From: Botryllus schlosseri
Taxonomy: Eukaryota
Assembly (NCBI GenBank): GCA_051294905.1
Contig: CM119371.1
Location: forward strand, 18,602,001-18,666,000
Direction: 5' to 3'
Length of the DNA stretch: 64,000 nucleotides
The notes beneath the pieces are model-generated. The model saw only the letters and a list, made by a program, of their open reading frames with translations. It had not been told where the DNA came from and did no database searches. Each line of letters starts with the position of its first letter. Within the stretch, counting starts at the first letter, position 1. Position numbers and translations under genes: made by a program. Positions 2,992 through 50,687 of this stretch are shown here, one piece after another.

Positions 2992-5044
2992 CAGGGTTGT
3001 AATGACTCGAGTCATGACTCGACTCGAGTCGGACTCGAGTCACGATTTTTTTATGACTCGACTTGACTCGAGTCATTTTCTTGAAATGGGAAAATGACTC
3101 GACTCGACTCGAGTCAATATTTGGATTGACTCGACTTGTACTCGAGTCATTACGCATGACTCGACCCAAGTCATTGACTCGGCTTATTTTATATGACTTG
3201 AAGATGAAGAAATTTGCGAATCATAATGGCTAGATCAACGCATCCGACGAATTCTGCCGACATCGCTATTTGTCACCACTGCTTTCGTTGCACTTGTCTG
3301 ATATCAGATATGCCGACGTAAAAACAACAGAAAATGATACATAGTAGCAATGCATTGTACAAAATCGTCCAGTGATGAAGAGGTAATAGATCAACCGCAA
3401 TTAAAGTACTCAAGACTTTTCAATTATGCAAGCAAATAATTGAATCAAAGTTCAATTAGAACCAATGAAATGACTCAGATGGTGAAGAGACTGATAAGCT
3501 CATGTGTAGACTTGAAGGCGATGATTCTTTGCATTTTTGGGCGACTAGAAAGAATGAGTATTCAATGCTCTTCAGTGTGGTTCAAAAATGCTTATCAATT
3601 CCTGCATCTAGTGCACTAGTGGAACGTGTATTCAGTAGATGTGGATTCATTCTACGGCCATGCCGCTTTAACATATTTGAGGATCTCCTTTCCACATTAG
3701 TATTTTTGAGGTGTAACTCATTGATTTGATCTGCTGTCTGTGAAAACACACAATGCCCCTCGTCCATTTGACGTTTTGTTAGGTATGTGCATTGTGCACG
3801 TGAGTAATAATGAATGGCTAATGTTGTGTGATGTTTGTACAATATGCCTGTTCTAAAATAACTTCTTTTTTATTTTACTGGCTGGTTACATGATAAAATT
3901 GTTAAGTTGCATAAAAGGAACACTGAATCTGGCTTAATTTGAAAAAAATGGAATCATTGATGTGAGAGGAGAATATTTTGGATTTGAAAATAAATGGAGT
4001 ATTTTAGTGAGAAATTCTTTCATATAATATAATTACATAGTAGTAAGCCAACTATTTTTTCATATCCAAAACATTCTACTCTAATAACTTCACTTTTTCT
4101 AGTTGGAATTGAGTCAAATTTGCTATGAATCATATTTTTACACAATGTAACAATATCATAAAATAGCCGGTAAAATTCGAAAATCTCTATTTGTAATTAG
4201 TCTAAAATTTTCTTTCATAGCATTGCTTTCTACTGGTTGGAATTGAGCCAAATTTGATTTTTTAGGCATTCTAGCAATTTTAAGAAGTAGCCGGAAAATT
4301 TGAAAAAATGTTTTTGAACAGCCCCATTGTACAATTATTTCTCCAATGCTGTAACTGCGATGTAGTCTGTAAAGCAATTGGGAAAACCTTTAGTATAATC
4401 AAAAGGTATCTGTTCTGTTGTCACTGCACAATGCACATAGTTGCATGCACGCTTTTACAGCATGCTGGCCTGTTGTAAATACCTCTACATAAACATGCAT
4501 TTATTGATTATCTATCAACTAGTATCTTGACGTGAATTTGTTGGTTCTCTATCAGATAGTATGTAGACGTGAATTCGTTGGTTCTCTATCAGCTATTCGC
4601 GAGCTATCGTCCATGTGTTCATAATAAAAACTGAATGCTTGTATTGGTGATGTATCAGACTGACAAGAGAGATATTTGATTTTAAGTTCTAAGATTAGTA
4701 AAGTTATCTTTAGCATCGGTAAATGAGGCCAGGACCTGTCCGTTATCTGCCTAAATAAACACGTGCCAAGACTCTGATATTGACAAAATGAGCATGTTTC
4801 GCAAACAGGGAATTCGATATCACCCAGGCAGGATAGAAAACATGAGTTGAACATGACTTCAATACTGTGACTTGGACTCGACTCGAGTCATAACACCATG
4901 ACTCGGACTTGACCCTTTAAACGGTGACTTGGACTCGGACTCGAGTCTGTGATGAATTGAAAATGACTCGACTCGACTCGAGTCAAAACCACAAAAGTAT
5001 GATTGACTCGTGACTCGGAACCATGTGACTTGGTTACAACCCTG
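2992..5044 (+). mobile_element. Non-autonomous hAT element with GACTCGAGTC-rich subterminal repeats
   Basis: Termini CAGGGTTGTAA...TTACAACCCTG, GACTC/GAGTC arrays at both ends, internal hAT transposase remnant. No clean TSD seen. Confidence 0.8.
3502..3729 (+). pseudogene. hAT transposase C-terminal dimerisation domain remnant
   Basis: L.FW...YS.L...LSIPASSALVERVFSRCG.IL.P.R...LSTLVFLRCN matches the hATC motif. Confidence 0.85.
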
Positions 5045-6823
5045 CACTTCTACTTTAATTGAAAGGAATTATCGGACATCGTAGCTTCATGTCCTGTTCA
5101 TATTGCATGCTGTTCATTTATTTCGAGAGGTCGCGATTGGTCACCCATTTTGTGTTACTGAAGAAGTTGCTAACGAAAGGGGCTCGATAACGATTTACTC
5201 CCGCATTTATCAAAATATACTCTGGTAGGGCTTGCCTACCAACGGAACTCACTTGAAAGATTATGATTAAAACCAGGGATGAGCAAACTACGGTTAGCGG
5301 ATCGCATGCGGACAACATTTTAGTGGCTCACGATAGCATCAAGATATATTTGTAGATATGGACGAAATGTATTCAAGAAATATATAAGTAGTTAGATAAA
5401 TGTGCACGACGCGCCCATTCGCGATTTATAAAGAACAAACAAAGATTATCAAGATAAAAGATAGTGAAAGAATTAGCTCATTCTCATTTTTGCAGCAATA
5501 CTCGAGGGGATTTCCCTTCTGACTGTGCGGCAATTAAAAAAGGGGGATTGACTGAGAGAAAACGAACAAAGAATCTGGATTGACCTTTGTACTGGAGTCA
5601 TTCTACTTGTACTTTTTCCACTCCTGATTCTACCTCGCCTGACTTCTGGACACGAGACTTGCGTATTGGGTATTTATTATATTTTCCCACGTATTTGATA
5701 GTATTTATTATATTTTCCCATGAATAGCAATGGCTCGGTTTTTAATTTCCACTCCTGATTTTACCTCGCTTGATCTCTGAACACGAGACTTGTATATTTA
5801 GTATTTTTTTAATGAGGCTTGATAATAGCCACCTGTCGTGACCTATCGGTCCGTGGCCAATCCGAGGACGAGTCTTGGAAATAATTGCCCCTCAAATCCC
5901 CCTCGGATGACTTGTCGCTCCGCGTTTGATTCAATTTCGTGTACGGGGAGGTCATAATTACCGGTCGTGACGTCAGTGTAGTTTTCTCCTGATCCGTTAG
6001 ATTCTGGTGCGTGTTTTAGGTGTCCATACGTCCGGCTGTGTAAAGTGACGCTTGTGGTCTGTCTCATACTGTCGTACTTGTCCGCCTTTTGCTGTTTTGT
6101 TGACTTAAATAGTGAGGAGAAATGATCTGTTATGATTATAAATATGTGTGTCATTTCGAGTCATACCGAGAATCAGATTTGGTAGAAATTTGTATTAGGC
6201 GCCCCGACATGGATTGACTTAAATAAAGCAGGATTATGAAAATAATAAGTAATTAAACAAATAGCTGATCCTCAATTCATCAACGTGTTAACTTCCGGCA
6301 TTACGTACCTAGTAATCGGTGCAAGCAACAACTGCTGTTCCATACTTATACCGCGTTCTAGCGTCTTAGGACAGACAGTCCCAACCAAACAATGTATTTA
6401 TGATGGGTTCTTTTACTGCTTCACGTCTGGTCAAGCGTAATCGGGCCGGTGTCTGTAAATAACATACAATTTACCGCGGCATATTAATTTTGTATGTTGT
6501 ACATGATGTACATTGCACAACTTGAATCGATCTGTTGGCGAACGAATGCTTTGCCCGTCTGTAACATACACATATCGATCACGAGCTCACCACGCAGTTG
6601 TCGTTCGAGGGCGACTCATTTCGCTGCAGACAATCACTTGTGTCCGCGTGCCCCGTAAAAAAATCCTCAACACCTCCACACATATTTACAATATCATACT
6701 ACGGGTATATTGCTTCGGCAGCCACGCACTATCGCTCGAAGTCGACAAATTTCGCTGCAGACAATCAGTTGTGTTCGCGTATGTGTCGTAAATATATCCT
6801 CAACACATTTTATGCCAACACCT

Positions 6824-8457
6824 GGTGTAGGAAATGGGGATTCGTCCTCTCAAAAACGAAGTCTGTGGCAATGCTCTTCACCAGGAAAAGAAAGATTCCC
6901 GATGTGTACTTGCACATTGACGGAAATCGAATCACCCTCGTTGACAACTTCAAGTATCTTGGTATTACTTTTGATAAGTTGTTGACATATAAAACACACA
7001 TTGACAACGTCGCGAAAAAATGCTCCAGAAGAATGGGATTACTTCGTGTCGTCACAAACACCGCATGGGGTGCTAATAAACACGCACTCCTACAGTTATA
7101 CAGATCTCTTATCAGATCCGTCATCGACTATGGTATGCCAGCATACTTTTTCACATCGAAGTATAACACTCACAAATTAGGGCTCATACAGAACCAAGCT
7201 TTACGTTTGTGTTGCGGAGCAATGCGGAGTACACCCATATGTGCTTTGCAAGCCGCATGTAACGAGCCGCCTCTCCACATTCGACACAAATATTTGTGTA
7301 TGAATTATCGGTGCCATTTGCTTGGTCAGGAATACAACCAACACCCATCAACTGAACTACTAACTGATACATGGCATGAAATTTACTCCTTGATAAGACC
7401 AAACTTCAAGACGTTCAATACCCTGTCAAAATCCCCTATTCTGGAACGGTTGGTGGTGGAAAAAGAACGAATTCAGTGCGTGGCACCCTGGACAGTTCCA
7501 CCCCCCACGGTCGACAGATCATTACTTGGGCTTATACGAAAGGGGGACTCGCCGATCTCAGTGAACTCGTGTTTCAGAGATTACCTTTTCGAGTGCCACG
7601 ACCAAGCCGTCGAGATCTACACAGACGGTTCTAAGACGGATACAGCAACGGCTTTCGCGATTTACATACCATCTCAGTCAGTCCGACTTAGCCAGATCTG
7701 CCCGAGTTTATTTTCCGTTTTCCAAGTGGAGATGCTAGCTATCGCTAATGCCCTATCGTGGATAATCAATCATGGCAGACGAACCGATAAATATGTTATT
7801 CTGACAGATTGTCTTAGTGTTCTGAACACGATCGCCACCCCGAACCGCACACCGAGCAGAACTTTCAATAAGATTTTTCCTCTCTTCCTGCAGATGGCAG
7901 GGATGGGGATGGACGTTGCCTTCTCCTGGGTTCCAGGACATAGTGGCATTCCCGGGAATGAGGTTGCAGATGAACTTGCACGTTCCACCGCCTCTTTCGC
8001 ATTTGACAGTCAGGGAATACCTCAAATTACCTATAGAGATGTCAAGAACGAAGTACGCAAATACGTCCGGACTGAGTGGCAGACCGAGTACCGCTCAACA
8101 GAGACGGGAAACCACTACAAACGTTTCCACCAAACGGTACAAACAACGTTTCCGTCGATGCACAGATCGCGTTTGTATGAAACGATAATATTCCGTCTCC
8201 GGTCCGGCCATTGTCGCCTAAAAGGGCATTTATTTAAAATAGGCTGCATCGACACGCCCTTGTGTGACTTATGCCTCGTACCGGAGAATGTGGATCACTT
8301 CCTCCTCGTATGCCCAAAATACGATTGGCACCGAGCATACTTGATTCATTCCTGCTTGAACTTGAAAGTTGAGTTCACTACATATAACCTTCTCGTACGA
8401 CCAGAACTTCTCTCGCCTCTCGTCGAGTTCGTCCTGGCCAGCAATGTTTTGATTTGA
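6824..8457 (+). CDS. LINE ORF2 C-terminal part: RT thumb, RNase H and C-terminal zinc knuckle
   Basis: FKYLGITFD; RNase H motifs IYTDGS, EMLAI..AL, ILTDC.S, WVPGHSGIPGNEVADELA; RLRSGH...CDLC...E.VDHFLLVC. The N-terminal part of ORF 6598-8457 is flanking arm sequence. Confidence 0.9.
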
Positions 8458-8580
8458 CAAATTTTCTTCAAGGTACACGATTTGCGACAGGTAATACGAC
8501 AATTCTGTCGTGGCGCACCAGACCGATAAGGTGACAAGCGCCACAATGTCCCTTTTTCAAAATTAATAATAATAATAATA
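6824..8580 (+). mobile_element. 5'-truncated LINE of the I group (I/Nimb-like), inserted in the left arm only
   Basis: 12-bp TSD ATGCCAACACCT (6812-6823 and 8581-8592) and a (TAA)n 3' tail. The empty site is visible in the right arm near 24706-24718. Confidence 0.93.
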
Positions 8581-10577
8581 ATGCCAACACCTCCAAGCAT
8601 ATTTGCGGCATCATATATCCTCAGCACATGTTATGCCAACACCCCCAAGCATATTTGCGGCATCATACTACGGATATATGGATTCGGGGGGAGTGTTACC
8701 GTCAGAGAATTGCTGTGTCACGCCTTTGAGCCTTGCATTTTCCTCTCGGTAACTGCGAGTACGATGTCAGATTCAATTGTACAGTGACGAATCTGGGATA
8801 GCTCGCTTTAGCGGGGTGGACCGACGTTATTTTGTTGAAACACGCTCGGTTGCGGTGGTGCAATAATGGGGGATAAATTGTGTCAGATCATACGAGATGC
8901 GATCTAGCCTACTTTCGGTGAGGTGTAAAGATGAGCGAGAGATTTCGAATTCTGACTCCACCCCGACTCGGGTTGCCAAATCAAAGTCCAGAAAATGTGG
9001 CTAGCACGTAAAGTCCTGTTATTTTCACATGTTGTGAGGACAAAATATAGTATAAATCCGACTTTCAAGGCCATTTGGTCGCATCCAATCTGGCTTCGCT
9101 GAAAACTGATGAAATCTGCGCCGGGTCCGGAGATGTTTCGTGACCTCCCCCCGTCCAGACAAGATTGTTCTGCTGTAATATAGGTGTCGTTGTATAATAA
9201 TTTACGTACAAGGAGACTTGGTATCGCTCCTTTGGCGGGATTCTGTTTGATTCGTCTATACAGGTGTTATTAGGGCGATCAGATTTGGTACCTCAAGGAG
9301 TATATTGGTAAAAATCGTGTCACGATGACAATAGCTTTACCGGTCAACATGCGGTCAACGGTCAACGACGCGGTGTGATGTACGTAAATCAGCTGTGATC
9401 AATCGAGCGTGACACAATCGCTGTCAGTCATCAATCTGCGACTTGACAAAACTCGCGTTTTCTGGTTGACAGCAACGCGATATATTTGATGTCCCCGTCG
9501 ACCCTCCTATTTTAATAGGGTTACCATGCGGCCTCATTTAGGGGAGCATATGTCCTTCATTTCCCAGTCACCCTTTCGCCAAAATGTACTCTCTTTCTGT
9601 CAATTTGCTCTCCTTGTTAGCTTAACATATCCAAAAAAAAACACCACGAGTAACGCAAAATGTGGGCCTAGATTACAAAAGTCGGGTATGTAGCCAAATC
9701 GGAAAAATGACGCTATGATGGTATTGTGCTGTCTATTACATGGATATACGTGCGGACCTGTGTAAACATGTGAATAGTAAAAGCGACTTAATCTACCGTT
9801 ACATGTAAAAAGATCGAGCGCAGTCGACCATGCCGGGGTATACCTACCTTAGTACAGCCAAATGATCCAACGTCGTACCGAGAATGGCCGGGGTGGTGGT
9901 ATATCATTCTCACGAGATGTACTTTGGAATGCGTGTGAAATCGACATCGCCCGTTACCCGACTGAAGCAAGTCGCCGCTGTAGTCCCTCTCTCTGTGTAT
10001 GCACAACGTGCTGAGAGCTGCAGATCCAGACGAAACTACGCATTCTGGCGAGGTTATCGAGATAGCCGGAGCGATTTACAACACATGCTACATTTACTTC
10101 AAAACGGAAAGACAAAATATAGCTTTGGAGTACTCAAGTAGTTTTTAAGAAATGTCGGTATCGTGAAATCGCCTTCTATCCTAATTATAAAAGAGTAGGT
10201 GCCCATAAAACTGTCGAGCGCAAGCACGTTGGTAACTGTGATAGTAGACAAAACTGACTCGAGTACCTCAGAAATAGTGCCTGTATTTCGTTGCTGGCCA
10301 CGCGCCTGCTTATTCACACCGACTGACTCGCGTAGTAAGCCACTGCGCCCCGTCATCTTCTTATTGCTCAAATAATATTACAATGAATATACACGAAATT
10401 GATTCTAATTTGTTGGTATTGTTATCAGCACAAAAGACACAGTTACATCAAATAATTTTACAATTCACGAAATCCATTCTCATTTGTCGGTAGTTTTATC
10501 AGCACAAAAGACACAGTTACACAAGTCTCGTAAATAGGTGTCGATACACTACAATCGTTTTATCGCCACTATTCAAC

Positions 10578-11756
10578 TCATAGCCCGATCACACGACTGA
10601 CGTTTCCGCAGATCAATTTTTGACGTTTGATCAACTCTTGCCTGGTTATGGGGTTTCTAATCACAGGGCGATTGAGATTCGGGTGTGTCTTTTCGATACG
10701 TTGCGCAAACTCGATACCTTTCGTTCGGAGTACGTATTCACACTGCGGAAACCATTTTGCATGTTCTGTCCAAACCTCGTCTTCACGGTCCCAACGAAGC
10801 CCGCCGTCACAGTAAAAACATTTGGTTCTGTCCGAATCAATGTAGTAAAACCCCGCTTTTGCTAACTGTTCAACACTAGCTCTAATTTTATTCGGTTCCC
10901 AGCCCTTGTCGAACGTTGCGATTCTTTTTGACAACGACGACATGAGAGGATTCACGGGGTTAAGACAAGGAAATAGTTGCTCAAGACATCGCTTTTCGTC
11001 CTCGGAGGGTTCCCGTGGTTCTTGCAGATGTAAAGTGAGACGTCGTATTTTGTCGCCGAGCAACTTATCCAAATTGTCTCGTTCGTGCTCGGTTAGCGCC
11101 ACATTCCCCGAATCGTCGCCACGTGCGAAACAACAACCCGGGTGATACGTCAAGTGTATTTCAGATACATCGTCTGTAGGCCTCCAATTGCGGAGAACGC
11201 CGGAGCAGTTGAAGCACTGCGTTCTGTCCAGGTCACCGAGGTAGAATAAACCTTGTTTTGCCAACTCGCCGACCGCCCGCGGTATGGGATAGCTGGGCCA
11301 TTTCTCAAAGGTTTCGCGACGCTTCGACTCCTTTCGCAAGTCGAGATTCCTAACCCGATACTCGTGCTCTTGATCAACGATATTCGCAAAGTTGATGTTG
11401 GCGTTTCCAACGGCTTTACACTGTCTCAATAAACTTTTGAAATTCGATTTCACAATAGGTATGTTCAACGCGTCTCGTACACAATTCGCGTCATGACGCC
11501 GTGCACTCGACCCGGTCCATCTTTCGAGGTATACACTGCATCCAAAGCATTTGATTTTGTCTTCAAATCCTAGCCAGTAGTATCCTTCAGATGCTAAATC
11601 GGTGCGTGTCGCGTATGATACTTTAGAGAATTTGGCGAACGTGGCGAGTCTGTACAATTCACTGCGGTGTGAACCGGAAGCGATATACACGCGTTTCTGT
11701 CCGGGTGGATCAGAGTATCTCTCCATTGACCTAATGCCAAGCTCTTTCATAAACAT
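10578..11756 (-). CDS. Inhibitor of apoptosis (IAP) protein, three BIR domains, no RING, intronless
   Basis: RLATF..LASEGYY..IKCFGC (BIR1, shortened); RRETFEKWP..LAKQGLFYLGDLDRTQCFNC-x16-H-x6-C (BIR2); RIATF..LAKAGFYY..DRTKCFYCDGGLRW..WTEHAKWFPQC (BIR3). First ATG at 11756; the ORF is open from 11804. Confidence 0.93.
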   Translation of the reverse strand: MFMKELGIRSMERYSDPPGQKRVYIASGSHRSELYRLATFAKFSKVSYATRTDLASEGYYWLGFEDKIKCFGCSVYLERWTGSSARRHDANCVRDALNIPIVKSNFKSLLRQCKAVGNANINFANIVDQEHEYRVRNLDLRKESKRRETFEKWPSYPIPRAVGELAKQGLFYLGDLDRTQCFNCSGVLRNWRPTDDVSEIHLTYHPGCCFARGDDSGNVALTEHERDNLDKLLGDKIRRLTLHLQEPREPSEDEKRCLEQLFPCLNPVNPLMSSLSKRIATFDKGWEPNKIRASVEQLAKAGFYYIDSDRTKCFYCDGGLRWDREDEVWTEHAKWFPQCEYVLRTKGIEFAQRIEKTHPNLNRPVIRNPITRQELIKRQKLICGNVSRVIGL

Positions 11757-13600
11757 GAAGTACCAAGACAGAGCTTTTGTGTCTATGCGTGCCCCATAGG
11801 TCAACCGAGTCGGCTCACACTTATATTCCTAGTTTATCCTTGAGAGCTGTATTACTGGTTAGTTGTACTTTTATGGCTGATTGACAACCGTTAGCTGTCG
11901 CTATTGCACCATTTACGTATGTGTAGGAGCAGGCAACTTCTGCAGTCCGCGGGGCGTGTGTAGCATAGTACCTCGGGCGGTGCGAATTGCTGAATCGATA
12001 CATTATTCGACCACCGACCAACACATACGAGGAATAAATCGTATTCAATATATTTTGGCAACAGCAATATCACTACAAAGCCGTATCTCCCCGATAATAA
12101 CGAGGACAATGTGGATTTTATAACAGTATTTTTATACAGGCACCGCCATGCCTGCTTCTCTCTAATCAATTAACGCGCGGTACAATACTTAAATAAGGTT
12201 TCATAGTGGTCTATAAGCCCGATACCCTAAATTGACAGAGATATCAATTCATTAAGTTGTTTTCTAACGACGCTACAGACAAGTACCAGTAAAGACAAAC
12301 CAAATTGTCACGCTATTGCGTCAATTCACCGACGACTCAGTATGAGAAATTCACTCTGTTTTACAACGGAACTCTGTTTTACAACGGGCTCTCATCGCTT
12401 GTCGTACGAGTACTTGTAATTTCGGTGTGACGTGCGCAAATCAGCTGTGATCATTCGAGTGTGACACGATCGCCCATCAGCTATTTGAGAAAACTCGTAT
12501 ATTCAGTAAGGTTGACGGCAATGCGTTATATTTGATGACCCTGTTGATACTAATGGGGGGTTGCCGTACGTCCTCCTTCCCCAGGAAAATGTCCTCGCAC
12601 AAATGTACTCCTTTTTGTGAATTTATCTCCCGATTCAGCTTAAAATACCCAAACAGACCATGAATAACGCGAAATGATGACCTACGAGAGACAGGTTTCG
12701 CCTGAAGCGGTTGAGGAGTAAGTTAAAAACGACTTGGGTATATAGCACGAGTACTCGAATCAGTAGCGTGACACCATTACTCACCCAAGCCCACACAAAC
12801 CGAAGAAATGATATACTGATGTGGAAATAACCCACAATATTTTCCGCCGATACGTGTTAGTACAACTCTACAGTCGAGTCCATCTAGCTGCGGCTTGCAA
12901 TTTGAAAGAGTTTGAAAAAGCAGGGTGGTACCAAAACGTGATATTGTTTCAGTGTGGACAGGCGCCAACATGCTATTTTGTTATTCTCTCCCCGTGGCAT
13001 GAAAGCAGGCGTTGGGGTGTCCCCGCAAGTCCACTGCGAGCGTAAGTCAATCTCACTGTTTGGACTGCTAATGCCGTCGCAATAATGATCACTCGCTCAT
13101 GCTTAGAAAGCAGAAATTGACGCCTCGATTATTTTTACGACCTCGTGGCTTTAGTAGGCTTACTAAAGCGGAAAAGACACCGTCACATGGGACATTAAAT
13201 GAGTTGATACTTGTTCTCTAGTTAGCGTTGATATTCGTTGGTACATGTGTTCATGCTTTTAAAATTTATGCTGGTTTTTGGGGTGCTCACCAATACAGTG
13301 TTGAACGTGATCTATAAGGACCCCGCTGCGTGCTATACGTCTAAATAAATATGTTTACTCGAGTTTACACCCTGCGTGGAGCAGTGAAGCGGGTGCAAAA
13401 TCGCTATATGCTCACCCACTATCATGGTCGTTTCTAATACTCGGCTAGGACGAGTCGTGTCTATTGTAATACCGTCTCTTTTATCTCCGTAATACCCACT
13501 AAATGATTATAATACCAAGAAGCCTCGGACAAACAACACAGAATTACACAGACGCGAAAAAAAACATTTATTGACACACTCATATCGAAATACGATCGGC

Positions 13601-13750
13601 TCACACAAAGTGAGTAGTCTCGTGTCTGTGAAGATTTGCTTGTGAACCAAAAGCTTTACCGCAAACACCGCATGGATGTTTTCTCAGTCCCACGTGAGCC
13701 TGGAGGTGAGTTTGTAACCCGCATTGATCAGGAAACAGTCTCCCACACAC
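13601..13750 (-). CDS. Terminal exon of a C2H2 zinc-finger gene (not in the ORF track)
   Basis: After acceptor-like gtgatAG: VCGRLFPDQCGLQTHLQAHVGLRKHPCGVCGKAFGSQANLHRHETTHFV*. AATAAA about 30 nt downstream (13572-13567). The last finger is mirrored at 14166-14237 (+). Confidence 0.75.
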   Translation of the reverse strand: MCGRLFPDQCGLQTHLQAHVGLRKHPCGVCGKAFGSQANLHRHETTHFV

Positions 13751-14087
13751 CTATCACGACGTCATTTTAGATTTTTATTTAATTGGCAATATATAAGTGT
13801 CACATATATCTTTTCAGGTTGCAAAGTAAGAATTTCCTCTTGGATTGCTCCGAAAGCCCGAAACTATTCATCAAACTTCACTATCCCATCAATTGCAAGC
13901 GCTACCATGCAGCGGAAAATTCACAATTTCGCCACATTTCCACATCATGATGACAAAACCTGACCCTTAGACGATTTGTGACTGATATTTGTGAGGCAGT
14001 CTGAAACACAACGACTCATATAGCGCAGATGGACAAATCCTAATCGAGTACATCGGATAGAGTTGCATCCTTGAAATCGTTATTTCC

Positions 14088-14164
14088 TAGGGATGGTGTG
14101 AACCTCTGAAAGGTTCGGGTTCGTGTGAACGCGAACCTTTTTGAAAGGTTCTGTGTGAATGTGA
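14088..14164 (+). mobile_element. Solo terminus of a hAT-type MITE at the palindrome fold junction
   Basis: TAGGGATGGTGTGAACCTCTGAAAGGTTC...GGTTCTGTGTGAA is nearly identical to the start of the complete MITE at 18946. Confidence 0.85.
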
Positions 14165-14500
14165 ATGCGGTGTTTGCGGTAAAGCTTTTGGTTCACAAGC
14201 AAATCTTCACAGACACGAGACTACTCACTTTGTGTGAGCCGATCGTATTTCGATATGAGTGTGTCAATAAATGTTTTTTTTTCGCGTCTGTGTAATTCTG
14301 TGTTGTTTGTCCGAGGCTTCTTGGTATTATAATCATTTAGTGGGTATTACGGAGATAAAAGAGACGGTATTACAATAGACACGACTCGTCCTAGTCGAGT
14401 ATTAGAAACGACCATGAAAGTGGGTGAGCATATAGCGATTTTGCACCCGCTTCACTGCTCCACGCAGGGTGTAAACTCGAGTAAACATATTTATTTAGAC

Positions 14501-15719
14501 CAGGGGTTCTCAAAGGGTGGGCCATGGCCCACTGGTGGGCCACAGAGCATTTTGAGGTGGGCCACAGAGCTATTTAGAAAATTTCAGAATTAATGTAAGT
14601 TTAGTTATATTTCTTACGTTATTCACTTAAAAATATAGATACGTAATCGAATTATACGTAGGCTACATAAAGCTTTTCATCCGACTCTGATTAGGCGTAG
14701 TGGCACGTATGAAGTCAGCATGTACAAATCGAAAACGTTAGGGAGAAACGGTGGCTTTTTCTACTGGCTATGACAAACTACGGCTAACAGTAACTAAAAT
14801 AATTTCAAGCGTATAATAACTGGAAGATGATGCTGAAGTAACCAAGTATTCCGGCACGGTCATTTGTCGTATGCCGTTGAAAAGGGTGTGCAATGGACTC
14901 GCATTGAAGTGCAATTGATGTACAGATTTACTGTACTTCGGCAGGCCGTATTATTGCAAGCTAAAATGAGTCATAATAGCAAATTATTTGCAACTTCTGC
15001 CGGATGTATACTGCACCAACGCAACGAATCTTAATGGATTGAGAATTTATCGGAGCGCAAAAATCTTTGAAGTCGGTTTAAAATGTCCGGCCTGGAAATC
15101 ATTGTATACATAATGGAAGAGTCACAGGAATTGATTGTATCATTGGATTGAATATTCTGACATCGCAACTTCACTTGTTTTGGCACAAGACATACAAAGT
15201 ACATCATGCATATTGAAAAATCATTCTCCGATTCTCTGTGGTACCATATTCACCAATGAATTGTCCGATGCAGGCCCATAATGATTATAGTATTCCCCAC
15301 AATAGTAGCCTATCACTTAAGTCCCAATCACACAGTGCGGGGAAGTGATCATTGTGTTTCGCGACGTGAATGGAGCAGCGGACGAAAATAATCTACTTAG
15401 GAGTTTTAGCTTATGATATACTATAGGGCTGTAACTGCCGCACCCTCACCCCCAATTGGGGGAGCTCGAAGGAGCCCAAGATTATTTCGTTGGTCGTTTG
15501 TTGGAGGATGTTTACTCTAGTTGAAATTTATTTCGCGCTTGGCGCGATTTCATATCCCGGGAGATCGAGTTCTAAATATCATCAGTTAGAGAAAAATGCG
15601 CCTATTTTAGAGAAATAGGCATATCGGCGCTGTCCATGACGACGCATTAAACAGGTGGGCCACAGCACATTTTTGAACCGGAAAATGGGCCATGGCCAAG
15701 AAAGGGCTGAGAACCCCTG
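14501..15719. mobile_element. hAT-type MITE in the right arm only
   Basis: TIR CAGGGGTTCTCA/TGAGAACCCCTG; 8-bp TSD ATTTAGAC (14493-14500, 15720-15727); empty site in the left arm near 13339-13346. Confidence 0.93.
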
Positions 15720-18700
15720 ATTTAGACGTATAGCACGCAGCGGGGTCCTTATAGATCACGTTCAACACTGTATTGGTGAGCACCCCAAAAACCAGCATAA
15801 ATTTTAAAAGCATGAACACATGTACCAACGAATATCAACGCTAACTAGAGAACAAGTATCAACTCATTTAATGTCCCATGTGACGGTGTCTTTTCCGCTT
15901 TAGTAAGCCTACTAAAGCCACGAGGTCGTAAAAATAATCGAGGCGTCAATTTCTGCTTTCTAAGCATGAGCGAGTGATCATTATTGCGACGGCATTAGCA
16001 GTCCAAACAGTGAGATTGACTTACGCTCGCAGTGGACTTGCGGGGACACCCCAACGCCTGCTTTCATGCCACGGGGAGAGAATAACAAAATAGCATGTTG
16101 GCGCCTGTCCACACTGAAACAATATCACGTTTTGGTACCACCCTGCTTTTTCAAACTCTTTCAAATTGCAAGCCGCAGCTAGATGGACTCGACTGTAGAG
16201 TTGTACTAACACGTATCGGCGGAAAATATTGTGGGTTATTTCCACATCAGTATATCATTTCTTCGGTTTGTGTGGGCTTGGGTGAGTAATGGTGTCACGC
16301 TACTGATTCGAGTACTCGTGCTATATACCCAAGTCGTTTTTAACTTACTCCTCAACCGCTTCAGGTGAAACCTGTCTCTCGTAGGTCATCATTTCGCGTT
16401 ATTCATGGTCTGTTTGGGTATTTTAAGCTGAATCGGGAGATAAATTCACAAAAAGGAGTACATTTGTGCGAGGACATTTTCCTGGGGAAGGAGGACGTAC
16501 GGCAACCCCCCATTAGTACCAACAGGGTCATCAAATATAACGCATTGCCGTCAACCTTACTGAATATACGAGTTTTCTCAAATAGCTGATGGGCGATCGT
16601 GTCACACTCGAATGATCACAGCTGATTTGCGCACGTCACACCGAAATTACAAGTACTCGTACGACAAGCGATGAGAGCCCGTTGTAAAACAGAGTTCCGT
16701 TGTAAAACAGAGTGAATTTCTCATACTGAGTCGTCGGTGAATTGACGCAATAGCGTGACAATTTGGTTTGTCTTTACTGGTACTTGTCTGTAGCGTCGTT
16801 AGAAAACAACTTAATGAATTGATATCTCTGTCAATTTAGGGTATCGGGCTTATAGACCACTATGAAACCTTATTTAAGTATTGTACCGCGCGTTAATTGA
16901 TTAGAGAGAAGCAGGCATGGCGGTGCCTGTATAAAAATACTGTTATAAAATCCACATTGTCCTCGTTATTATCGGGGAGATACGGCTTTGTAGTGATATT
17001 GCTGTTGCCAAAATATATTGAATACGATTTATTCCTCGTATGTGTTGGTCGGTGGTCGAATAATGTATCGATTCAGCAATTCGCACCGCCCGAGGTACTA
17101 TGCTACACACGCCCCGCGGACTGCAGAAGTTGCCTGCTCCTACACATACGTAAATGGTGCAATAGCGACAGCTAACGGTTGTCAATCAGCCATAAAAGTA
17201 CAACTAACCAGTAATACAGCTCTCAAGGATAAACTAGGAATATAAGTGTGAGCCGACTCGGTTGACCTATGGGGCACGCATAGACACAAAAGCTCTGTCT
17301 TGGTACTTCATGTTTATGAAAGAGCTTGGCATTAGGTCAATGGAGAGATACTCTGATCCACCCGGACAGAAACGCGTGTATATCGCTTCCGGTTCACACC
17401 GCAGTGAATTGTACAGACTCGCCACGTTCGCCAAATTCTCTAAAGTATCATACGCGACACGCACCGATTTAGCATCTGAAGGATACTACTGGCTAGGATT
17501 TGAAGACAAAATCAAATGCTTTGGATGCAGTGTATACCTCGAAAGATGGACCGGGTCGAGTGCACGGCGTCATGACGCGAATTGTGTACGAGACGCGTTG
17601 AACATGGGCAATTCCATACACAGACAAACGATGTTCACATCACCACCTCTTCAAATCTCCTGAAATTTGGTACACGCAGAGATGAGCTTATTCCTAACAG
17701 GATGAACTTTATTTTATGAAAATTGGACTTTGGGGTCAAAAGTTACGTCACTTTGAAAATTGACAATTTTCTGCTCATTTCGGATCTGCACATCTCAGGT
17801 TTTATCAGTGAAATATTCAAGAAGGTGTAGCTAGATGTTGAACGAGAGTTGAGATACGGCACTTGGATTTATCTGAAGCTTGTCTGATCGTCTATATTTC
17901 CAAGTGAAATTTAATACCCTGGAGGTTAGGGTCAAAGGTTAAATTGAGGGGGAAATCTAAATGCAGTCAGGCGTTACACGATTTAGACAGCGGATTGCTC
18001 CAAAACATATTAAAATATTTTGGAAAAAACGATCTTAAATGAAAGTTTGCTTCAAAGAGAATTCGTTCATAGCTGTTTGATTTTGGTTTTGAAACTGTGA
18101 AGTGATGAAATTGCAGTTTTAAGAGCACACTTCATTTGTACATGGAAATGCAGTACTAGTAGGGCGTGTTCGGACATCGAGTCTGGGGTGTGTGCGGGTA
18201 ACATGTCTGGGGTGTGTTGGGACTGTGTTGCCATTAGGACATTTAATCTGGGGTGAGTTCGGACTGTTTTGCCCCTCGGACATCGTGTCTGGGGTATGTT
18301 CGGGACATCATGTCTTGGGTGCGTTCGGACAGTTTTGCAACTCGGACATCGTGCCTAGGGTGTGTTCGGAATGTGTTGCCATTTGGAAATCGTGTCTAGG
18401 GCGTGTTCGAACATCATGTCTGCGGTGTTAGGACTGTGTTGCCACTGAGACATCGCGTCTGGAGGGAGTTGTTCGGACATCATGCCTGGGGTGTGTTCGG
18501 ACTGTGTTTTCACTCGGACATCGTGTCTGGAATATGTTCGTGCTGCGCCAGGCATGCCTCAGACCTGACATTTGCGCACTATTTTTATCCTGACATGTTT
18601 CGGAGCTGATAACTGCGCACCAAATACTCCCAGGCATGGTCCGGACCTGATATCTGCGCGCTGAATGGACACAGACATGCTTCAGACGTGATACCCGCGT

Positions 18701-18945
18701 CCTAAATGACGCGTGACCTATATATGACCTCTATGTTTGCGGTTTTTGGTGATAGATATCTGCGATAGCTGAGTATATCCACTGTAGCGATAGCTGAGTA
18801 TATCCACAATTCCACATCCACAGTATTGTTATCTGTGATGGCTGAGCATATCCACAGTAGTGATAGCTGTGGATATACTCAGCTATCACTACTGTGGATA
18901 TACCCAGCTATCGCAGATATAAGCAAAAACCGCAGACATATATAG

Positions 18946-19851
18946 TAGGGATGGTGTGAACCTCTGAAAGGTTCAGGTTCGTGTGAACGCGAACCTTTTT
19001 GAAAGGTTCTGTGTGAACGCGAACGTGAACCTCATGACGTCACGTGACGTCATATTGCTACTTCCAACCCTACATTTCAGTAGTGAAGTGATAGCCTGTA
19101 TTAACGTACAGATTGAGCACGATGCCTAGCGACAACTCGGGCAACATTATGCCACGATGCTGAAGTGTAACATTGACGTTTTAAACGTCTCCAAATGTAT
19201 CAACTGGGGTAATATTATCAGTATCCCATGAAATCAATATCTTCTGTCGCTTTGCCAACAATTTCGACGACTACTTGCAAGGAATATAAGCTTACGTCTT
19301 AACGGTCTATAGCCCAGACCAGACAATGTACTGCTACGTTGATATTGAGCAGAGTGTAAAACGGGGCTCTATATCTGGTACCGATATTACCCCATTAACA
19401 AGTTTTACAGCAGTAGCCAACAACCCAATAGCACGGATTTGGTTTTTATGATACAATAAACATAGGAAGTCAAGATTGACCCCGTCCTCCTGCTAGATTT
19501 TTTACATCGGACTTAACGATATCAATTTGGTTGATTGGTAGAATAAGCAATTGAGCATTATTCGCTGATTACCTACATATGTAATGTATTTCGCTCTTGA
19601 TGTTGTGCGATTGCGGGTGCATGCTCGTTTGGTGTTGATTTTTTTACGCTGCCAGCGCCATGCATATAGTGGCCCGCAGTTGAAATGTCATAAATTTCAA
19701 CCAAAGATGTTATAATGAAGCGAAAATTGTAATATATGAAAAAGGTTCACAGTGTAGAACCTACCAAGGTTCGTTTGTGAACGTGAACCTCTAAATTTCA
19801 GAGGTTCGCACACAGAACGCGAACGTGAACCTCACGTTCACACCATCCCTA
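18946..19851. mobile_element. hAT-type MITE nested in the foldback element
   Basis: TIR TAGGGATGGTGTGAAC; 8-bp TSD ATATATAG (18938-18945, 19852-19859). Confidence 0.92.
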
Positions 19852-19860
19852 ATATATAGG

Positions 19861-20673
19861 CAGGTTTGCCATCGACATGGACCCAAAAATAAGGACAGTC
19901 GAAAAATTAGATTGGCATTTAAAAGCGTTTTCGTGCATAGTGTATTTATACGAGGCGTGGCATATCATTTTTCATACTTTCGCCAGAAACAATCTGCTCC
20001 AGCAACTCCTTGTTATCAGAAAGTGCTTCATTGATCTCACGACCGCTCATGTCTAGGTTTACCTTTACTCAGAGCCAAACAGCACTTCATCACCCCCCCC
20101 CCAAAAAAAAAAAAACATTACGATGGTCTTGGGTCCTCATAAGGTGATAAACTAAACTTATTCACCTCGCTGTGATTGGAGGCGTCAACGAATATGGGAA
20201 AAGGCTGTACACAAAGTTCAGACAAAATCATTTTTGAGTGTATGGAGCAAGACCTCCAATAACAAAGCTTGTAGTCTTGGTCCTGGCCGAAGCAAACTCC
20301 TTGCGATTTTATAATCGGGGAATATTGCGTGTGCAATCGTTGGGGAGGGAAGATTGCTGGTTTTTGTCAGCATGGAATGCCCCAGGTATCCTCAGCAGCA
20401 GCTTACACACTTCTTGTATTTTGGGGTATCAATATAAGTTGAAATAGGGGTCTTTTTCATATCGCTCCTAGGTCAATGTCGCAATTGCAGATATTGCAAC
20501 ACAGATACCAGAGGAAAATGATCGAAGTTCTGAAGTTGTTGAAAATAAGATAAAATAAGGACACAAGTCGAAAACCAGGAGATTTCTTAGAAATAAGGAC
20601 AGTTGAGTTTTCTAAGACGTGGCTCTTCAAAATAAGGACAAATCTTAGAAATAAGGATGGTATGGCAACCCTA
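19861..20673. mobile_element. Second hAT-type MITE nested in the foldback element
   Basis: CAGGTTTGCCAT...ATGGCAACCCTA; AAATAAGGAC subterminal repeats; TSD TATATAGG/CATATAGG (7 of 8 match). Confidence 0.75.
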
Positions 20674-50647: not shown

Positions 50648-50687
50648 GTCAGAAACTTTCCAGTTACAAAGTTGAAAGTCGGAGAAG

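What the first reader, a model, noticed from the sequence alone, without database searches (positions are those of the whole stretch)
10578..11804. Intronless, RING-less three-BIR IAP carried inside the mobile element
Seen: an uninterrupted ORF with three BIRs (BIR1 with shortened H-C spacing, BIR2 canonical, BIR3 one residue short) that stops soon after BIR3, with no UBA, CARD or RING. A TATAAG lies about 70 nt upstream of the first ATG. Established: cellular cIAP/XIAP genes usually have introns and a RING, and large DNA viruses such as baculoviruses carry captured IAPs. Inference: a captured or retro-copied host IAP used by the element to block apoptosis, and a possible route for IAP family expansion in invertebrate genomes.
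Basis: partly seen in the sequence, partly recalled or inferred. Interest (0 to 1): 0.8.

Follow-up and report, generated by a model that had tools for sequence, protein, structure and literature searches.

The report
IAP gene on palindromic Maverick-type transposon
A sea-squirt-like genome holds about a hundred copies of a shortened cell-death-blocking gene, each sitting in both arms of a mirror-image jumping element with the end marks of Maverick virus-like transposons, which shows one concrete way such gene families can multiply.

Summary
The ORF is real: 10578-11804 (-), three BIR domains, no RING, UBA or CARD, none elsewhere in the window.

It lies in a mobile element, 5387-26143, with AGTAGT/ACTACT ends and a 6-bp duplication. 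This is not a Polinton proper. No polymerase, integrase, ATPase or capsid gene was found in it. It is a near-perfect palindrome: two 99.9%-identical arms, each with one IAP copy. The second copy is split by a later transposon.

The genome holds at least 106 IAP matches, mostly in inverted pairs. The 19-nt terminus occurs 117 times, in pairs with a median spacing of 15.1 kb.

Twenty-seven of 30 copies keep the frame; dN/dS is 0.22. Between two element families only the IAP coding sequence is alignable. Sense-strand single-cell RNA reads cover the 3' end.

The same genome holds at least 118 protein-primed polymerase matches. One examined 19.6-kb Maverick has the same end motif and TSD length, and carries BIR, Death-domain, caspase-like and E2 genes.

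The window's Bcl-2-like ORF belongs to a second such family, with at least 150 matches.

IAP and Bcl2 homologues on adintoviruses are already published. The single-gene palindromic derivative appears new. Trans-mobilisation and anti-apoptotic function are inferred.

The parts
5387..26143 (.). Whole IAP-bearing element: 20,757 bp, a palindrome with three later one-arm insertions
   Evidence: Inverted repeats I1-I7 and I17. Blastn arm identities are 99.1-99.93%. The termini were found only at 5387 (+) and 26143 (-).
5381..5386 (.). Left target-site duplication, TATATA
   Evidence: The sequence beyond it differs on the two sides.
26144..26149 (.). Right target-site duplication, TATATA
5387..5407 (+). 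Left terminus, starting AGTAGT, the (AGT)2 Maverick end motif
   Evidence: The 19-nt version occurs 117 times in the genome against 0 for the control.
26123..26143 (-). Right terminus, the inverted copy, ending ACTACT on the + strand
10578..11726 (-). IAP coding sequence, 382 aa from the MERYSD start. The open frame extends to 11804, with an upstream in-frame ATG at 11756.
11481..11666 (-). BIR1 (C-X2-C-X14-H-X3-C)
   Evidence: Translation; alignments.
11127..11336 (-). BIR2 (canonical spacing)
10731..10925 (-). BIR3 (C-X2-C-X15-H-X6-C)
   Evidence: Best Pfam stretch, residues 294-358 of the 408-aa frame.
11820..11825 (-). TATA-like box. It reads TATAAG in this copy and TATATG or TATATATG in 19 of 20 copies.
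17340..17605 (+). Second IAP copy, N-terminal piece with BIR1, in the right arm
   Evidence: Arm D' 15720-17605 mirrors 11461-13346. tblastn 17346-17549; 98.9% identity.
21834..22720 (+). Second IAP copy, piece with BIR2 and BIR3
   Evidence: 294 of 295 residues identical to the first copy.
17606..21833 (.). 4.2-kb transposon that splits the second IAP copy. It has 29-nt perfect terminal inverted repeats, a 4-bp duplication ACAT and internal fold-back arms.
   Evidence: The empty site is seen in the left arm at 11461-11464.
6824..8580 (+). Insertion in the left arm only: a 5'-truncated non-LTR retrotransposon piece with RNase H, an (AAT)n tail and a 12-bp duplication
   Evidence: Pfam RNase_H 1.1e-13. 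Absent from copy C4. Junctions.
14501..15719 (.). Insertion in the right arm only: a 1.2-kb element with CAGGGG... inverted ends and an 8-bp duplication, hAT-like
13674..14164 (.). Unique centre of the palindrome (491 nt)
   Evidence: It lies between arms I17, 13557-13673 and 14165-14281.

Best explanation
The ORF is the only recognisable gene of a non-autonomous, palindromic transposon derived from, or parasitic on, Maverick/Polinton virus-like elements.

Shown:
- The element has (AGT)2/(ACT)2 ends and 6-bp target duplications.
- It is present in dozens of copies of about 14-17 kb.
- It consists of two nearly identical inverted arms with one IAP gene each.
- The IAP belongs to the ascidian IAP clade and has lost the UBA-like and RING parts.
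- It is kept open and under purifying selection across copies.
- It is the only sequence conserved between two diverged element families.
- The family is transcribed in sense.
- The same genome holds many autonomous Mavericks with intact polymerase. The one examined has the same end motif and TSD length, an rve integrase, and carries cell-death genes itself.

Inferred:
- The element is integrated in trans by the integrase of such Mavericks, and perhaps replicated or packaged by them.
- The mirror structure comes from snap-back (strand-switch) copying of one end of a linear, protein-primed genome, or from hairpin repair. Either would keep the two arms identical.
- The RING-less IAP pays its way by delaying death of the cell in which the element or its helper multiplies. 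It would do so by binding caspases or IAP antagonists through its BIRs. This role for a RING-less IAP is reasoned from general knowledge of IAPs and comes from no call.
For: Mobile element:
- The termini were located at 8 of 11 locus pairs examined. TSDs are perfect at 6 of these 8 and match at 5 of 6 bases at the other 2. Family 2 has a perfect TSD.
- The 19-nt terminus has 117 matches against 0 for the control.
- Of the 100 listed matches, 37 inverted pairs can be formed. Their median spacing is 15,089 bp, and 23 of 37 lie between 13.4 and 16.9 kb.

Palindrome:
- Copy C4 has arms of 6,459 nt at 99.95%.
- Copy C10 is self-inverted over 14,875 nt at 99.74%.
- The family 2 copy is self-inverted over 14,804 nt at 99.82%.
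- Three TE insertions with their own TSDs, each with an empty site in the other arm, show that the arms are two real segments.

Copies of the IAP:
- There are 106 IAP matches: 73 at 87-100% identity, 28 at 70-73%, 5 others.
- 56 of the 73 have a partner within 16 kb.
- The two arm copies differ by 0-3 of 1182 nt. Copies in different elements differ by 34.5 nt on average. The partner arm is the nearest or co-nearest copy for 19 of 20.

Selection:
- There are no indels in any of 30 coding alignments, while indels are visible in the 140 nt upstream.
- 27 of 30 frames are open. dN is 0.0166, dS 0.0767, ratio 0.22 over 190 pairs of 20 elements.
- Between the halves of family 1 and family 2 only the IAP coding sequence aligns, and it lies in opposite orientation.
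- No other Pfam domain was found in 28 further ORFs of three copies.

Origin:
- The nearest named proteins are Styela clava IAPs at 40-44% identity.
- The quick tree puts families 1 and 2 together (support 100), inside the Styela clade (95) and the tunicate clade (99).
- Both families share the same truncated tail.

Helper candidates:
- At least 118 polymerase matches in several identity classes, most with frames of about 1290-1310 aa.
- Element C16:14427197-14446771 has AGTAGT ends, the TSD GATGTA, rve plus chromodomain and an A32-like ATPase, and BIR, Death, UQ_con and caspase-domain ORFs.

Published hallmarks: (AGT)2//(ACT)2 ends, perfect 6-bp TSDs and sizes of 12.7-24.6 kb (PMC8097293, passages).

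RNA: 87 reads of a single-cell RNA run, all on the sense side. Depth is 26 at 10641-10797 and about 0 from 10955 to 11739, across the 5' part of the gene.
Against: - No polymerase, integrase, ATPase or protease was found in the element. Membership in Polintons proper therefore fails, and dependence on a helper is inferred only.
- The termini share only AGTAGT and a loosely A/T-rich continuation with the one autonomous element examined. No matching helper family was identified.
- None of the listed polymerase hits lies within 60 kb of a listed IAP copy or terminus (compared by eye). Both lists are truncated.
- 22 of 37 listed terminus pairs hold no listed IAP hit. One copy, C10, was verified to keep only the first 47 residues. 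The IAP is therefore dispensable for persistence in the genome.
- The RNA evidence is thin: about 3% of one run was read. No read is 99% or more like the window copy (76 at 95-99%, 11 at 90-95%), so other family members, not this copy, are shown as expressed.
- BIR1 and BIR3 have non-canonical spacing and the E3 ligase part is gone. Activity is untested.
- dN/dS below 1 does not say whether selection acts for the element or for the host.
- The palindrome centres were not checked against reads.
- The size clustering is loose: the Bcl-2 family measures 9.5-15.1 kb.
- The tree is the quick version; the careful search did not finish.
Confidence: 0.6

Rival explanations
1. Host-level adaptation. 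The IAP copies are kept because many RING-less IAPs benefit the animal, for example in stress tolerance or regeneration, as proposed for bivalves. On this view the transposon is only the vehicle of duplication.
For: dN/dS is 0.22 and most frames are open. The family is transcribed. Large IAP expansions with dispersed, intronless duplicates are described in other invertebrates (PMC13159474, passages; PMC7831173, abstract only).
Against: The copies differ by as little as 1 nt between chromosomes, and the arm copies evolve in concert. IAP-less derivatives of the same element persist. Three of 30 copies have internal stops. The same architecture carries a Bcl-2-like gene, and the autonomous element carries its own cell-death genes. 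All this fits selection on the element lineage better.
Confidence: 0.15
2. Antidote or interference. The autonomous Maverick encodes pro-death parts (caspase-like and Death-domain proteins). The palindromic elements would supply IAP or Bcl-2 as an antidote. They would act either as an addiction pair that favours cells or gametes carrying them, or as a satellite that blunts the helper and so protects the host.
For: Caspase-domain, Death-domain, E2 and single-BIR ORFs lie in the accessory regions of the autonomous element. The satellites carry exactly one anti-death gene each. Mavericks with selfish cargo are reported in nematodes (10.1101/2022.07.12.499685, abstract in the search listing only).
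Against: There is no evidence that the caspase-like ORF is active or pro-death. Viral caspase and Death-domain homologues can also be decoys. No linkage between helper and satellite loci was seen.
Confidence: 0.1
3. Neutral passenger. The IAP was captured once and is merely copied along, and the open frames reflect the youth of the copies.
For: Many copies are very young (minimum 1 difference in 1182 nt). Some elements have lost the gene.
Against: dN/dS is 0.22 over comparisons with up to 62 differences. There are no indels in 30 of 30 copies, although indels occur just upstream. The IAP is the only conserved stretch between families that are 73% identical in protein and unalignable elsewhere.
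Confidence: 0.05
4. Assembly artefact. The inverted duplication is a fold-back chimera of long reads, so the 'second copy' and the palindrome are not real.
For: The arms are 99.9% identical. The palindrome centre was not checked with reads.
Against: The same architecture, with its own TSDs, occurs at dozens of loci. Arms of other copies differ at 0.05-0.26%. Three transposon insertions with TSDs sit in one arm only, with the empty site in the other.
Confidence: 0.02

Closest known systems
Accessory IAP and Bcl2 homologues of adintoviruses / Polintons (Starrett et al. 2021, PMC8502044, passage read; leafhopper adintoviruses, bioRxiv 10.64898/2026.07.28.741253, figure legend passage)
   Same: An anti-apoptotic host-type gene carried by an element of the Polinton/Maverick/adintovirus kind. 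In this genome an autonomous Maverick also carries a BIR ORF.
   Different: In those cases the gene is an accessory ORF of a complete element with polymerase, integrase and capsid genes. Here it is the only gene of a core-less palindromic derivative, present twice per element and in about a hundred copies. Their supplementary figures were not seen, so the domain make-up of those IAPs is unknown to me.
Vertebrate Mavericks (Barreat & Katzourakis 2021, PMC8097293, passages)
   Same: The 5'-(AGT)2//(ACT)2-3' end motif, perfect 6-bp TSDs, a size within 12.7-24.6 kb, and accessory regions next to the ends.
   Different: TIRs there are 46-1,447 bp and eight core ORFs are present. Here the 'TIR' is the whole arm (6.5-7.4 kb) and no core ORF is present.
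Butterfly polintons with ~2-kb gene-bearing TIRs (Pannagram preprint, 10.1101/2025.02.07.637071, passages)
   Same: Genes lie inside the terminal inverted repeats, so each insertion has two copies.
   Different: There the duplicated genes are core genes (hexon, adenain) of an otherwise complete element. Here the inversion spans the whole element and the gene is cargo.
Snap-back defective genomes of linear DNA viruses (AAV snapback genomes, PMC8235507, abstract in the search listing only; adenovirus defective genomes with large inverted repeats, recalled, no call)
   Same: A sub-genomic molecule made of one genome end and its inverted copy. It keeps both termini and depends on a helper.
   Different: Those are transient replication by-products. 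Here the form is integrated, heritable, diversified into families and carries a selected gene. The link is by analogy only.
IAP expansions in invertebrates (PMC13159474, passages; hard clam PMC7831173 and oyster PMC8917759, abstracts in the listing only)
   Same: Many dispersed, often intronless IAP copies, including BIR-only architectures.
   Different: Those papers ascribe dispersed copies to retrotransposition or to unspecified transposon activity. Here the vehicle is identified, with ends and TSDs.
Drosophila Foldback (FB) elements (recalled, no call)
   Same: Long inverted arms make up most of the element.
   Different: FB arms are built of tandem subrepeats and make 9-bp TSDs (recalled). 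Here the arms are unique sequence, the TSD is 6 bp and the ends are (AGT)2.

Membership tests
IAP / BIR-domain proteins | At least one BIR domain with the C-C-H-C zinc ligands | tested here: met
   Pfam PF00653 in 3 stretches, E 3.3e-46. All four ligands are present in each BIR. The spacing is canonical in BIR2 only.
RING-type IAPs (XIAP/cIAP/DIAP1/BIRC7 type) | C-terminal RING (PF13920) E3 ligase domain | tested here: not met
   There is no RING in the ORF or anywhere in the window. Homology to the 583-aa RING-bearing relative ends at residue 360.
IAP (functional sense) | Binds or inhibits caspases or IBM-type antagonists and suppresses cell death | not testable with these tools
   Inferred only.
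Polinton / Maverick (autonomous) | [quoted passage not shown] | tested here: not met
   No such ORF in the element (Pfam on the long ORFs of the window, 6 and 67 of 85 aa or more; 28 ORFs of other copies). Pfam did not recognise the genome's own polymerase fragment either, but no ORF over 205 aa other than the IAP exists in copies C4, C10 and the family 2 copy.
Polinton / Maverick (autonomous) | Retrovirus-like (rve) integrase | tested here: not met
   It is present in the autonomous element C16.
Polinton / Maverick (autonomous) | Capsid proteins, packaging ATPase, maturation protease | tested here: not met
   No Pox_A32 or protease hit and no long ORF. Capsid families are poorly covered by Pfam.
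Polinton / Maverick (structural hallmarks, also of non-autonomous derivatives) | (AGT)2//(ACT)2 or (AG)3//(CT)3 end motif | tested here: met
   Motif as defined in PMC8097293.
Polinton / Maverick (structural hallmarks) | 6-bp target-site duplication | tested here: met
   Perfect at 6 of 8 pairs and 5/6 bases at the other 2. Family 2 has ATTACT. The autonomous C16 element has GATGTA.
Non-autonomous derivative of a resident autonomous family | Terminal sequences shared with an autonomous element of the same genome beyond the 6-nt motif | tested here: inconclusive
   Only one autonomous family's ends were read. They share AGTAGT and an A-rich continuation but not more.
Processed retrogene | Poly(A) remnant and LINE-type TSD directly flanking the coding sequence | tested here: not met
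   No T-run on the + strand within 280 nt downstream of the stop. The TSDs flank the whole 20.8-kb element instead.
Baculovirus-type IAP | Groups with the viral two-BIR plus RING architecture | tested here: not met
   Three BIRs and no RING. The best hits are ascidian, and the tree places it inside tunicates. No viral sequence was among the 18 hits. No baculoviral IAP was put in the tree.

The most novel reading that the evidence does not exclude
The palindromic elements are heritable satellite genomes of Maverick viruses. Each would be a snap-back copy of one viral end that keeps the replication and integration ends on both sides. Each would be copied, packaged and integrated by the helper's machinery, and would carry exactly one host-derived death-control gene (IAP or Bcl-2-like). 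Control of host cell death in this virus-host system would then be spread over a helper (caspase-like, Death-domain, E2 and BIR genes) and a swarm of single-gene satellites. A large part of the 'expanded' IAP and Bcl-2 repertoire of the animal would in fact be a virus-satellite population.
Probability: 0.2. Interest if true: 0.9.

Novelty: new variant of a known kind. Interest (0 to 1): 0.72.

Why it matters
1. It gives a concrete, testable vehicle for the dispersed, intronless IAP (and Bcl-2) copies that comparative studies ascribe loosely to retrotransposition or 'transposon activity'. Gene counts in such genomes may partly count transposon cargo.

2. A core-less, fully palindromic element with Maverick ends, diversified into families and still moving (copies on different chromosomes differ by 1 nt in 1182), bears on how Mavericks replicate. 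Arms that stay identical while families diverge call for a copying step that regenerates one arm from the other.

3. The sole conserved content is an anti-death gene, and the autonomous element carries caspase-like, Death-domain, E2 and BIR genes. Together these point to cell-death control as the central battleground of Maverick-host relations in a chordate relative.

Tried and rejected
- Pfam PF03175 search of the whole genome for the polymerase gave 0 hits. This was a false negative, overturned.
- A scan of viral contigs with the IAP found no pattern match.
- The AGTAGT-like end at window 28445 and 48808 might have marked the carrier. It occurs only at those two places in the genome, so it is a local duplication and not a family.
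- TATAAG as a baculovirus-late-type signal is rejected: it is in 1 of 20 copies.
- The RNase H ORF 6565-8454 as an element gene is rejected: it is a later LINE-type insertion absent from other copies.
- The 204-aa ORF of copy C10 has no family and reads like non-coding sequence upstream of the lost IAP.
- Sequencing runs: no RNA holder was listed. Run X22 (another organism label) gave 0 reads, which is no test. X15 and X16 are contigs of uncertain kind and show presence only.
- Earlier findings of this scan: three look-ups, nothing held.
- Kapitonov & Jurka 2006 could not be read: two ids are not held. The hallmarks are cited from PMC8097293 instead.
- The careful tree search did not finish in 288 s. 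The quick tree is reported.
- Print searches for this arrangement: 'polinton' + 'inhibitor of apoptosis' (3 papers); 'adintovirus' + 'apoptosis' (2); polinton/maverick with cargo/palindrom, with defective/snapback/hairpin/head-to-head and with Bcl-2/anti-apoptotic. None of the listed papers describes palindromic single-gene Maverick derivatives. Only listings and the named passages were seen, and supplements were not opened.
As a result only one autonomous element and three to four satellite copies were read.
Full report
**1. The observation**

The window has an uninterrupted frame at 10578..11804 on the minus strand, 408 aa counted from a TTG. Pfam finds BIR in three stretches (E 3.3e-46) and nothing else apart from the related zf-C3HC model.

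- BIR1: C-X2-C-X14-H-X3-C
- BIR2: C-X2-C-X16-H-X6-C
- BIR3: C-X2-C-X15-H-X6-C

The frame ends 50 residues after the last zinc ligand of BIR3. The tblastn query file held all 18 proteins, and rows were printed for 7 of them: the named Styela and Ciona proteins plus unnamed P0005, all with BIR and RING by the precomputed Pfam column. None of their C-terminal parts matched anywhere in the 64 kb at E<=1. The furthest query residue matched was 488.

TATAAG lies 64-69 nt before the first ATG.
- In 5 of 20 elements a TGA sits directly before the ATG at 11726. The likely product is the 382-aa protein starting MERYSD.
- TATAAG is found in 1 of 20 copies. The other 19 have TATATG or TATATATG.
- The short H-X3-C of BIR1 is shared by RING-bearing ascidian IAPs.
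- There is a second copy of the gene in the window.

**2. The surroundings: a palindrome**

The repeat search showed a set of nested inverted repeats. Together they make one palindrome from 5387 to 26143 with a 491-nt centre at 13674-14164. Blastn gives 99.1-99.93% identity between the arm pieces.

The IAP at 10578-11726 (-) has a mirror copy on the plus strand. That copy is split between 17605 and 21834 by 4.2 kb. The part from 21834 to 22720 is identical at 294 of 295 residues.

Three stretches occur in one arm only, and each is a bona fide transposon insertion with its own target duplication and an empty site in the other arm:
- 6824-8580: a 5'-truncated LINE-type piece with RNase H, an (AAT)n tail and a 12-bp TSD. 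It is absent from another copy of the element.
- 14501-15719: CAGGGG... inverted ends and an 8-bp TSD.
- 17606-21833: 29-nt perfect inverted ends and the 4-bp TSD ACAT.

These insertions show that the two arms are two real pieces of DNA and not a duplicated read.

**3. It is a transposon with Maverick ends**

The palindrome starts AGTAGT, ends ACTACT, and is flanked by TATATA on both sides. The sequence beyond differs on the two sides.

The first 300 nt find 43 places in the window's own genome (495.5 Mb, 219 contigs), mostly as inverted pairs. I looked at 11 locus pairs and could locate the ends in 8. Six of these have perfect 6-bp duplications (AACGGT, AGTACG, GCCCTA, TGTAGT and TATATA twice), and two match at 5 of 6 bases.

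The 19-nt terminus, with one mismatch allowed, occurs 117 times (52 forward, 65 reverse) against 0 for the reversed control. Among the 100 listed matches I could form 37 inverted pairs. Their median spacing is 15,089 bp, and 23 of 37 lie between 13.4 and 16.9 kb.

According to Barreat & Katzourakis 2021 (PMC8097293, passages read), vertebrate Mavericks have these features:
- the end motif 5'-(AGT)2//(ACT)2-3'
- perfect 6-bp TSDs
- sizes of 12.7-24.6 kb
- TIRs of 46-1,447 bp
- accessory regions next to the ends

The IAP element meets the end motif, the TSD and the size.

**4. It is not a Polinton proper**

Pfam scans found no polymerase, integrase, ATPase or protease. They covered the long ORFs of the window (6; 67 of 85 aa or more) and 28 ORFs of three other copies. 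Inside the element they found only BIR and the RNase H of the LINE insertion.

Other copies have no ORF longer than 205 aa besides the IAP. Their structures are:
- Copy C4:17287568-17302004 has arms of 6,459 nt at 99.95% and a 1.5-kb centre.
- Copy C10:8933786-8948646 is its own reverse complement over 14,875 nt at 99.74%.

**5. The IAP is the selected content**

The genome gives 106 matches to the protein. Of these, 73 are at 87-100% identity, 28 at 70-73% and 5 are others. Only 105 of 450 candidates were scored, so these are lower bounds. Of the 73, 56 have a neighbour within 16 kb.

For the 30 best copies:
- The coding alignments have no gap, although indels are visible in the 140 nt upstream.
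- 27 of 30 keep the frame from MERYSD, and 3 have one internal stop.
- Nei-Gojobori estimates over 190 pairs of 20 elements give dN 0.0166, dS 0.0767 and a ratio of 0.22.
- The two arms of one element differ by 0-3 of 1182 nt. Different elements differ by 34.5 nt on average (range 1-62). The partner arm is the nearest or co-nearest copy for 19 of 20.

The arms therefore evolve in concert while the family diverges. Some copies on different chromosomes are almost identical, which means recent movement.

The 70-73% class belongs to a second family. C4:18241053-18255850 is a 14.8-kb complete palindrome (99.82%) with ends starting AGTAGTAAAG and the TSD ATTACT. Its 407-aa three-BIR ORF faces the centre. 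Between half-elements of the two families the IAP coding sequence is the only alignable stretch, by blastn and by tblastx, and it lies in opposite orientation.

Both families share three derived features:
- the same truncated tail after ...HPNLNRP.IRNPIT
- one-residue deletions in BIR3
- deletions in BIR1

So the RING was lost before the families split.

Not every element keeps the gene. Copy C10 retains only the first 47 residues, and 22 of 37 listed terminus pairs hold no listed IAP hit (the IAP list is truncated).

**6. Origin of the gene**

The nearest named proteins are Styela clava IAPs at 40-44% identity over 91-96% of the query. They are 574-675 aa long with BIR and RING. Ciona and Phallusia follow, and insect proteins come at 27-31%. 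No viral protein is among the 18 hits.

The window's own genome has RING matches at 112 places, 25 of them inside intronless frames of 505-605 aa. The one I read is 583 aa with three BIRs, a UBA-like stretch and a RING. It is 47% identical to the window IAP, and the homology stops at residue 360 of 382.

The quick maximum-likelihood tree has 21 rows and SH-aLRT support; the careful search did not finish. It shows:
- the two element families joined (support 100)
- the 583-aa protein as their sister (90)
- this group inside the Styela clade (95)
- that clade inside the tunicates (99), apart from arthropod and bird IAPs

This fits a host-lineage gene taken up and truncated. It does not fit a baculovirus-type gene, although no baculoviral sequence was in the tree. 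Nothing marks it as a retro-copy. No A-run follows the ORF, and its RING-bearing relatives here are also single-ORF genes.

**7. Candidate helpers**

A first search with Pfam PF03175 found nothing, but that was a false negative. A Pox_A32-type ATPase hit lies next to a polymerase fragment with the YxDTDS-type motif. That fragment finds at least 118 places in several identity classes (91-96%, 66-71%, 56-64% and 38-43%). Most have open frames of about 1290-1310 aa.

One element, C16:14427197-14446771 (19,575 bp), has:
- inverted ends starting AGTAGTAAAT
- the TSD GATGTA
- the 1289-aa polymerase frame
- an rve integrase with chromodomain and an A32-like ATPase
- accessory ORFs at its two ends with a ubiquitin-conjugating E2 domain, a caspase domain, one BIR and a Death domain

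Autonomous Mavericks with the same end motif and TSD length, which themselves carry cell-death genes, are therefore abundant in this genome. What I could not show is a helper whose ends match the IAP families beyond AGTAGT and an A-rich continuation. None of the listed polymerase loci lies within 60 kb of a listed IAP copy or terminus. Further fetches were not possible.

**8. Expression**

No run on record as RNA holds the stretch. I laid four runs on window:8600-13300.
- The single-cell RNA-seq run X23 has the same species label as the best DNA holder, and about 3% of it was read. It gave 87 reads, all second mates and all on the side that is sense for a minus-strand gene. Depth is 26 at 10641-10797 and 7.5 at 10484-10640, and it falls to about 0 from 10955 to 11739, across the 5' part of the gene. 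This is the 3'-biased picture expected of such libraries.
- None of these reads is 99% or more like the window copy (76 at 95-99%, 11 at 90-95%). The family is shown to be transcribed, but not this copy.
- X22 gave no reads, which is no test.
- X15 and X16 are contigs of uncertain kind.

**9. How it most likely works**

Shown: a high-copy, recently mobile element with Maverick ends and TSDs. It is built as two concerted arms, and its one conserved, selected and transcribed gene is a RING-less three-BIR IAP.

Inferred:
- (a) Integration in trans by a Maverick integrase.
- (b) A copying step that regenerates one arm from the other. This could be snap-back strand switching during protein-primed replication from one end, or repair within a single-strand hairpin. 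Snap-back defective genomes of AAV (PMC8235507, abstract only) and of adenovirus (recalled) are the analogy.
- (c) The IAP delays cell death to the element's or helper's benefit, by binding caspases or IAP antagonists through its BIRs. Whether a RING-less IAP is shielded from RING-dependent turnover is reasoned from general knowledge of IAPs, not tested.

I put about 0.95 on 'cargo of a mobile (AGT)2/6-bp-TSD element', about 0.7 on 'Maverick-derived and Maverick-mobilised' and about 0.5 on 'anti-apoptotic for the element's benefit'. The compound statement gets 0.6.

**10. A general phenomenon in this genome**

The Bcl-2-family ORF at window 1346-1813 (-) is not an ordinary host exon either.
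- The genome has at least 150 matches (150 scored of 411 candidates) at 76-99% identity. Almost all have intact 165-228-aa frames, and most are in inverted pairs.
- An end reading AGTAGTGAGA... on the minus strand lies at window 2918-2938.
- That 21-nt terminus occurs 41 times against 0 for the control, in pairs 9.5-15.1 kb apart that enclose the ORF pairs.
- Inverted pairs of decayed RING remnants about 10.5 kb apart hint at further, older families.

**11. Comparison with what is known, and novelty**

Already in print:
[quoted passage not shown] An IAP ORF is also drawn in leafhopper adintovirus genomes (bioRxiv 10.64898/2026.07.28.741253, legend passage).
- Gene-bearing 2-kb TIRs in butterfly polintons (10.1101/2025.02.07.637071, passages).

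I did not find the architecture in the searches, of which I saw listings and the named passages only. The architecture is core-less, fully palindromic Maverick-end elements whose only conserved gene is one anti-death gene per arm. They are diversified into families and present in tens to hundreds of copies in a tunicate-like genome.

The 2026 survey of metazoan IAPs ascribes dispersed intronless copies to retrotransposition or unspecified transposon activity (PMC13159474, passages). Here the vehicle is identified.

I rate it a new variant of a known kind, with interest 0.72.

Noticed in passing
window 1346-1813 (-) and 2918-2938 (-): A Bcl-2-family ORF (Pfam Bcl-2, 4e-20) lies 1.1 kb inside the end of another (AGT)2-ended element, whose terminus sits at 2918-2938. 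The genome holds at least 150 matches at 76-99% identity, nearly all with intact 165-228-aa frames and mostly in inverted pairs. The 21-nt terminus occurs 41 times against 0 for the control, in pairs 9.5-15.1 kb apart. Pair C4:298685-311661, for example, encloses the ORF pair 299809+/310070-. This is a second single-gene, anti-death, inverted-pair family.
   Followed up: partly
G000:C16:14427197-14446771 (L069, L071, L072, L068): A 19,575-bp autonomous Maverick with AGTAGT ends and the TSD GATGTA. It has a 1289-aa polymerase frame, an rve integrase with chromodomain and an A32-like ATPase. Its accessory ORFs have a ubiquitin-conjugating E2 domain (5.6e-47), a caspase domain (2.8e-13), one BIR (1.1e-10) and a Death domain (2.3e-10).
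   Followed up: partly
G000:C9:2479420-2481190 (L070) and 24 further loci: Intronless IAPs with 505-605-aa open frames occur at 25 of 112 RING matches, scattered over the chromosomes. Only L070 was read: 583 aa, three BIRs, a UBA-like stretch and a RING. Their flanks were not examined, so they may also be cargo. L070 is 47% identical to the window IAP.
   Followed up: partly
e.g. G000:C1:3171892+/3182457-, C3:33645362+/33655923-, C16:3642837+/3653358-: Decayed RING remnants (39-58 aa, with stops) occur in inverted pairs about 10.5 kb apart. This suggests older palindromic families that once carried RING-bearing IAPs.
   Followed up: no
G000:C4:18241053-18255850 (L065+L066): IAP family 2 is a 14.8-kb complete palindrome (99.82%) with ends starting AGTAGTAAAG and the TSD ATTACT. 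Its 407-aa three-BIR ORF faces the centre. The protein is 72% identical to the window's in the alignment (71% by tblastn). 28 matches lie in the genome.
   Followed up: yes
window 17606-21833: A 4.2-kb fold-back type transposon with 29-nt perfect terminal inverted repeats, the 4-bp TSD ACAT, inner inverted arms of 92-98% identity and arrays of 41- to 68-nt repeats.
   Followed up: partly
window 26894-28445 and 47423-48808 (also 40125-40296): A local direct duplication, 96-100% identical, holds tRNA-like sequences (ARAGORN calls one tRNA-Tyr(ata) at 28177-28251). It ends in an AGTAGT-like motif that occurs nowhere else in the genome.
   Followed up: partly
window 50208-54952: 300-nt direct repeats (98%) at 50208-50507 and 54653-54952 flank a 675-aa ORF with DUF1759. 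It looks like an LTR retrotransposon of BEL/Pao type; the type is recalled, not tested.
   Followed up: no
window 31958-33418 (-): A 486-aa ORF made of about 15 C2H2 zinc fingers in 84-nt repeats.
   Followed up: no
window 3469-3726, 44523-44867, 56563-56925; 33537-35289 vs 57815-59580: Fragments of a hAT dimerisation domain, a DDE_Tnp_4 (Harbinger-type) transposase and a reverse transcriptase. Also a 1.7-kb dispersed repeat at 84-95% identity.
   Followed up: no
window 12054-12367: A minor pile of single-cell RNA reads (depth 2-3) lies upstream of the IAP. Ten reads carry a common foreign 5' extension at 12178. It is an unexplained second transcript or a chimera.
   Followed up: no
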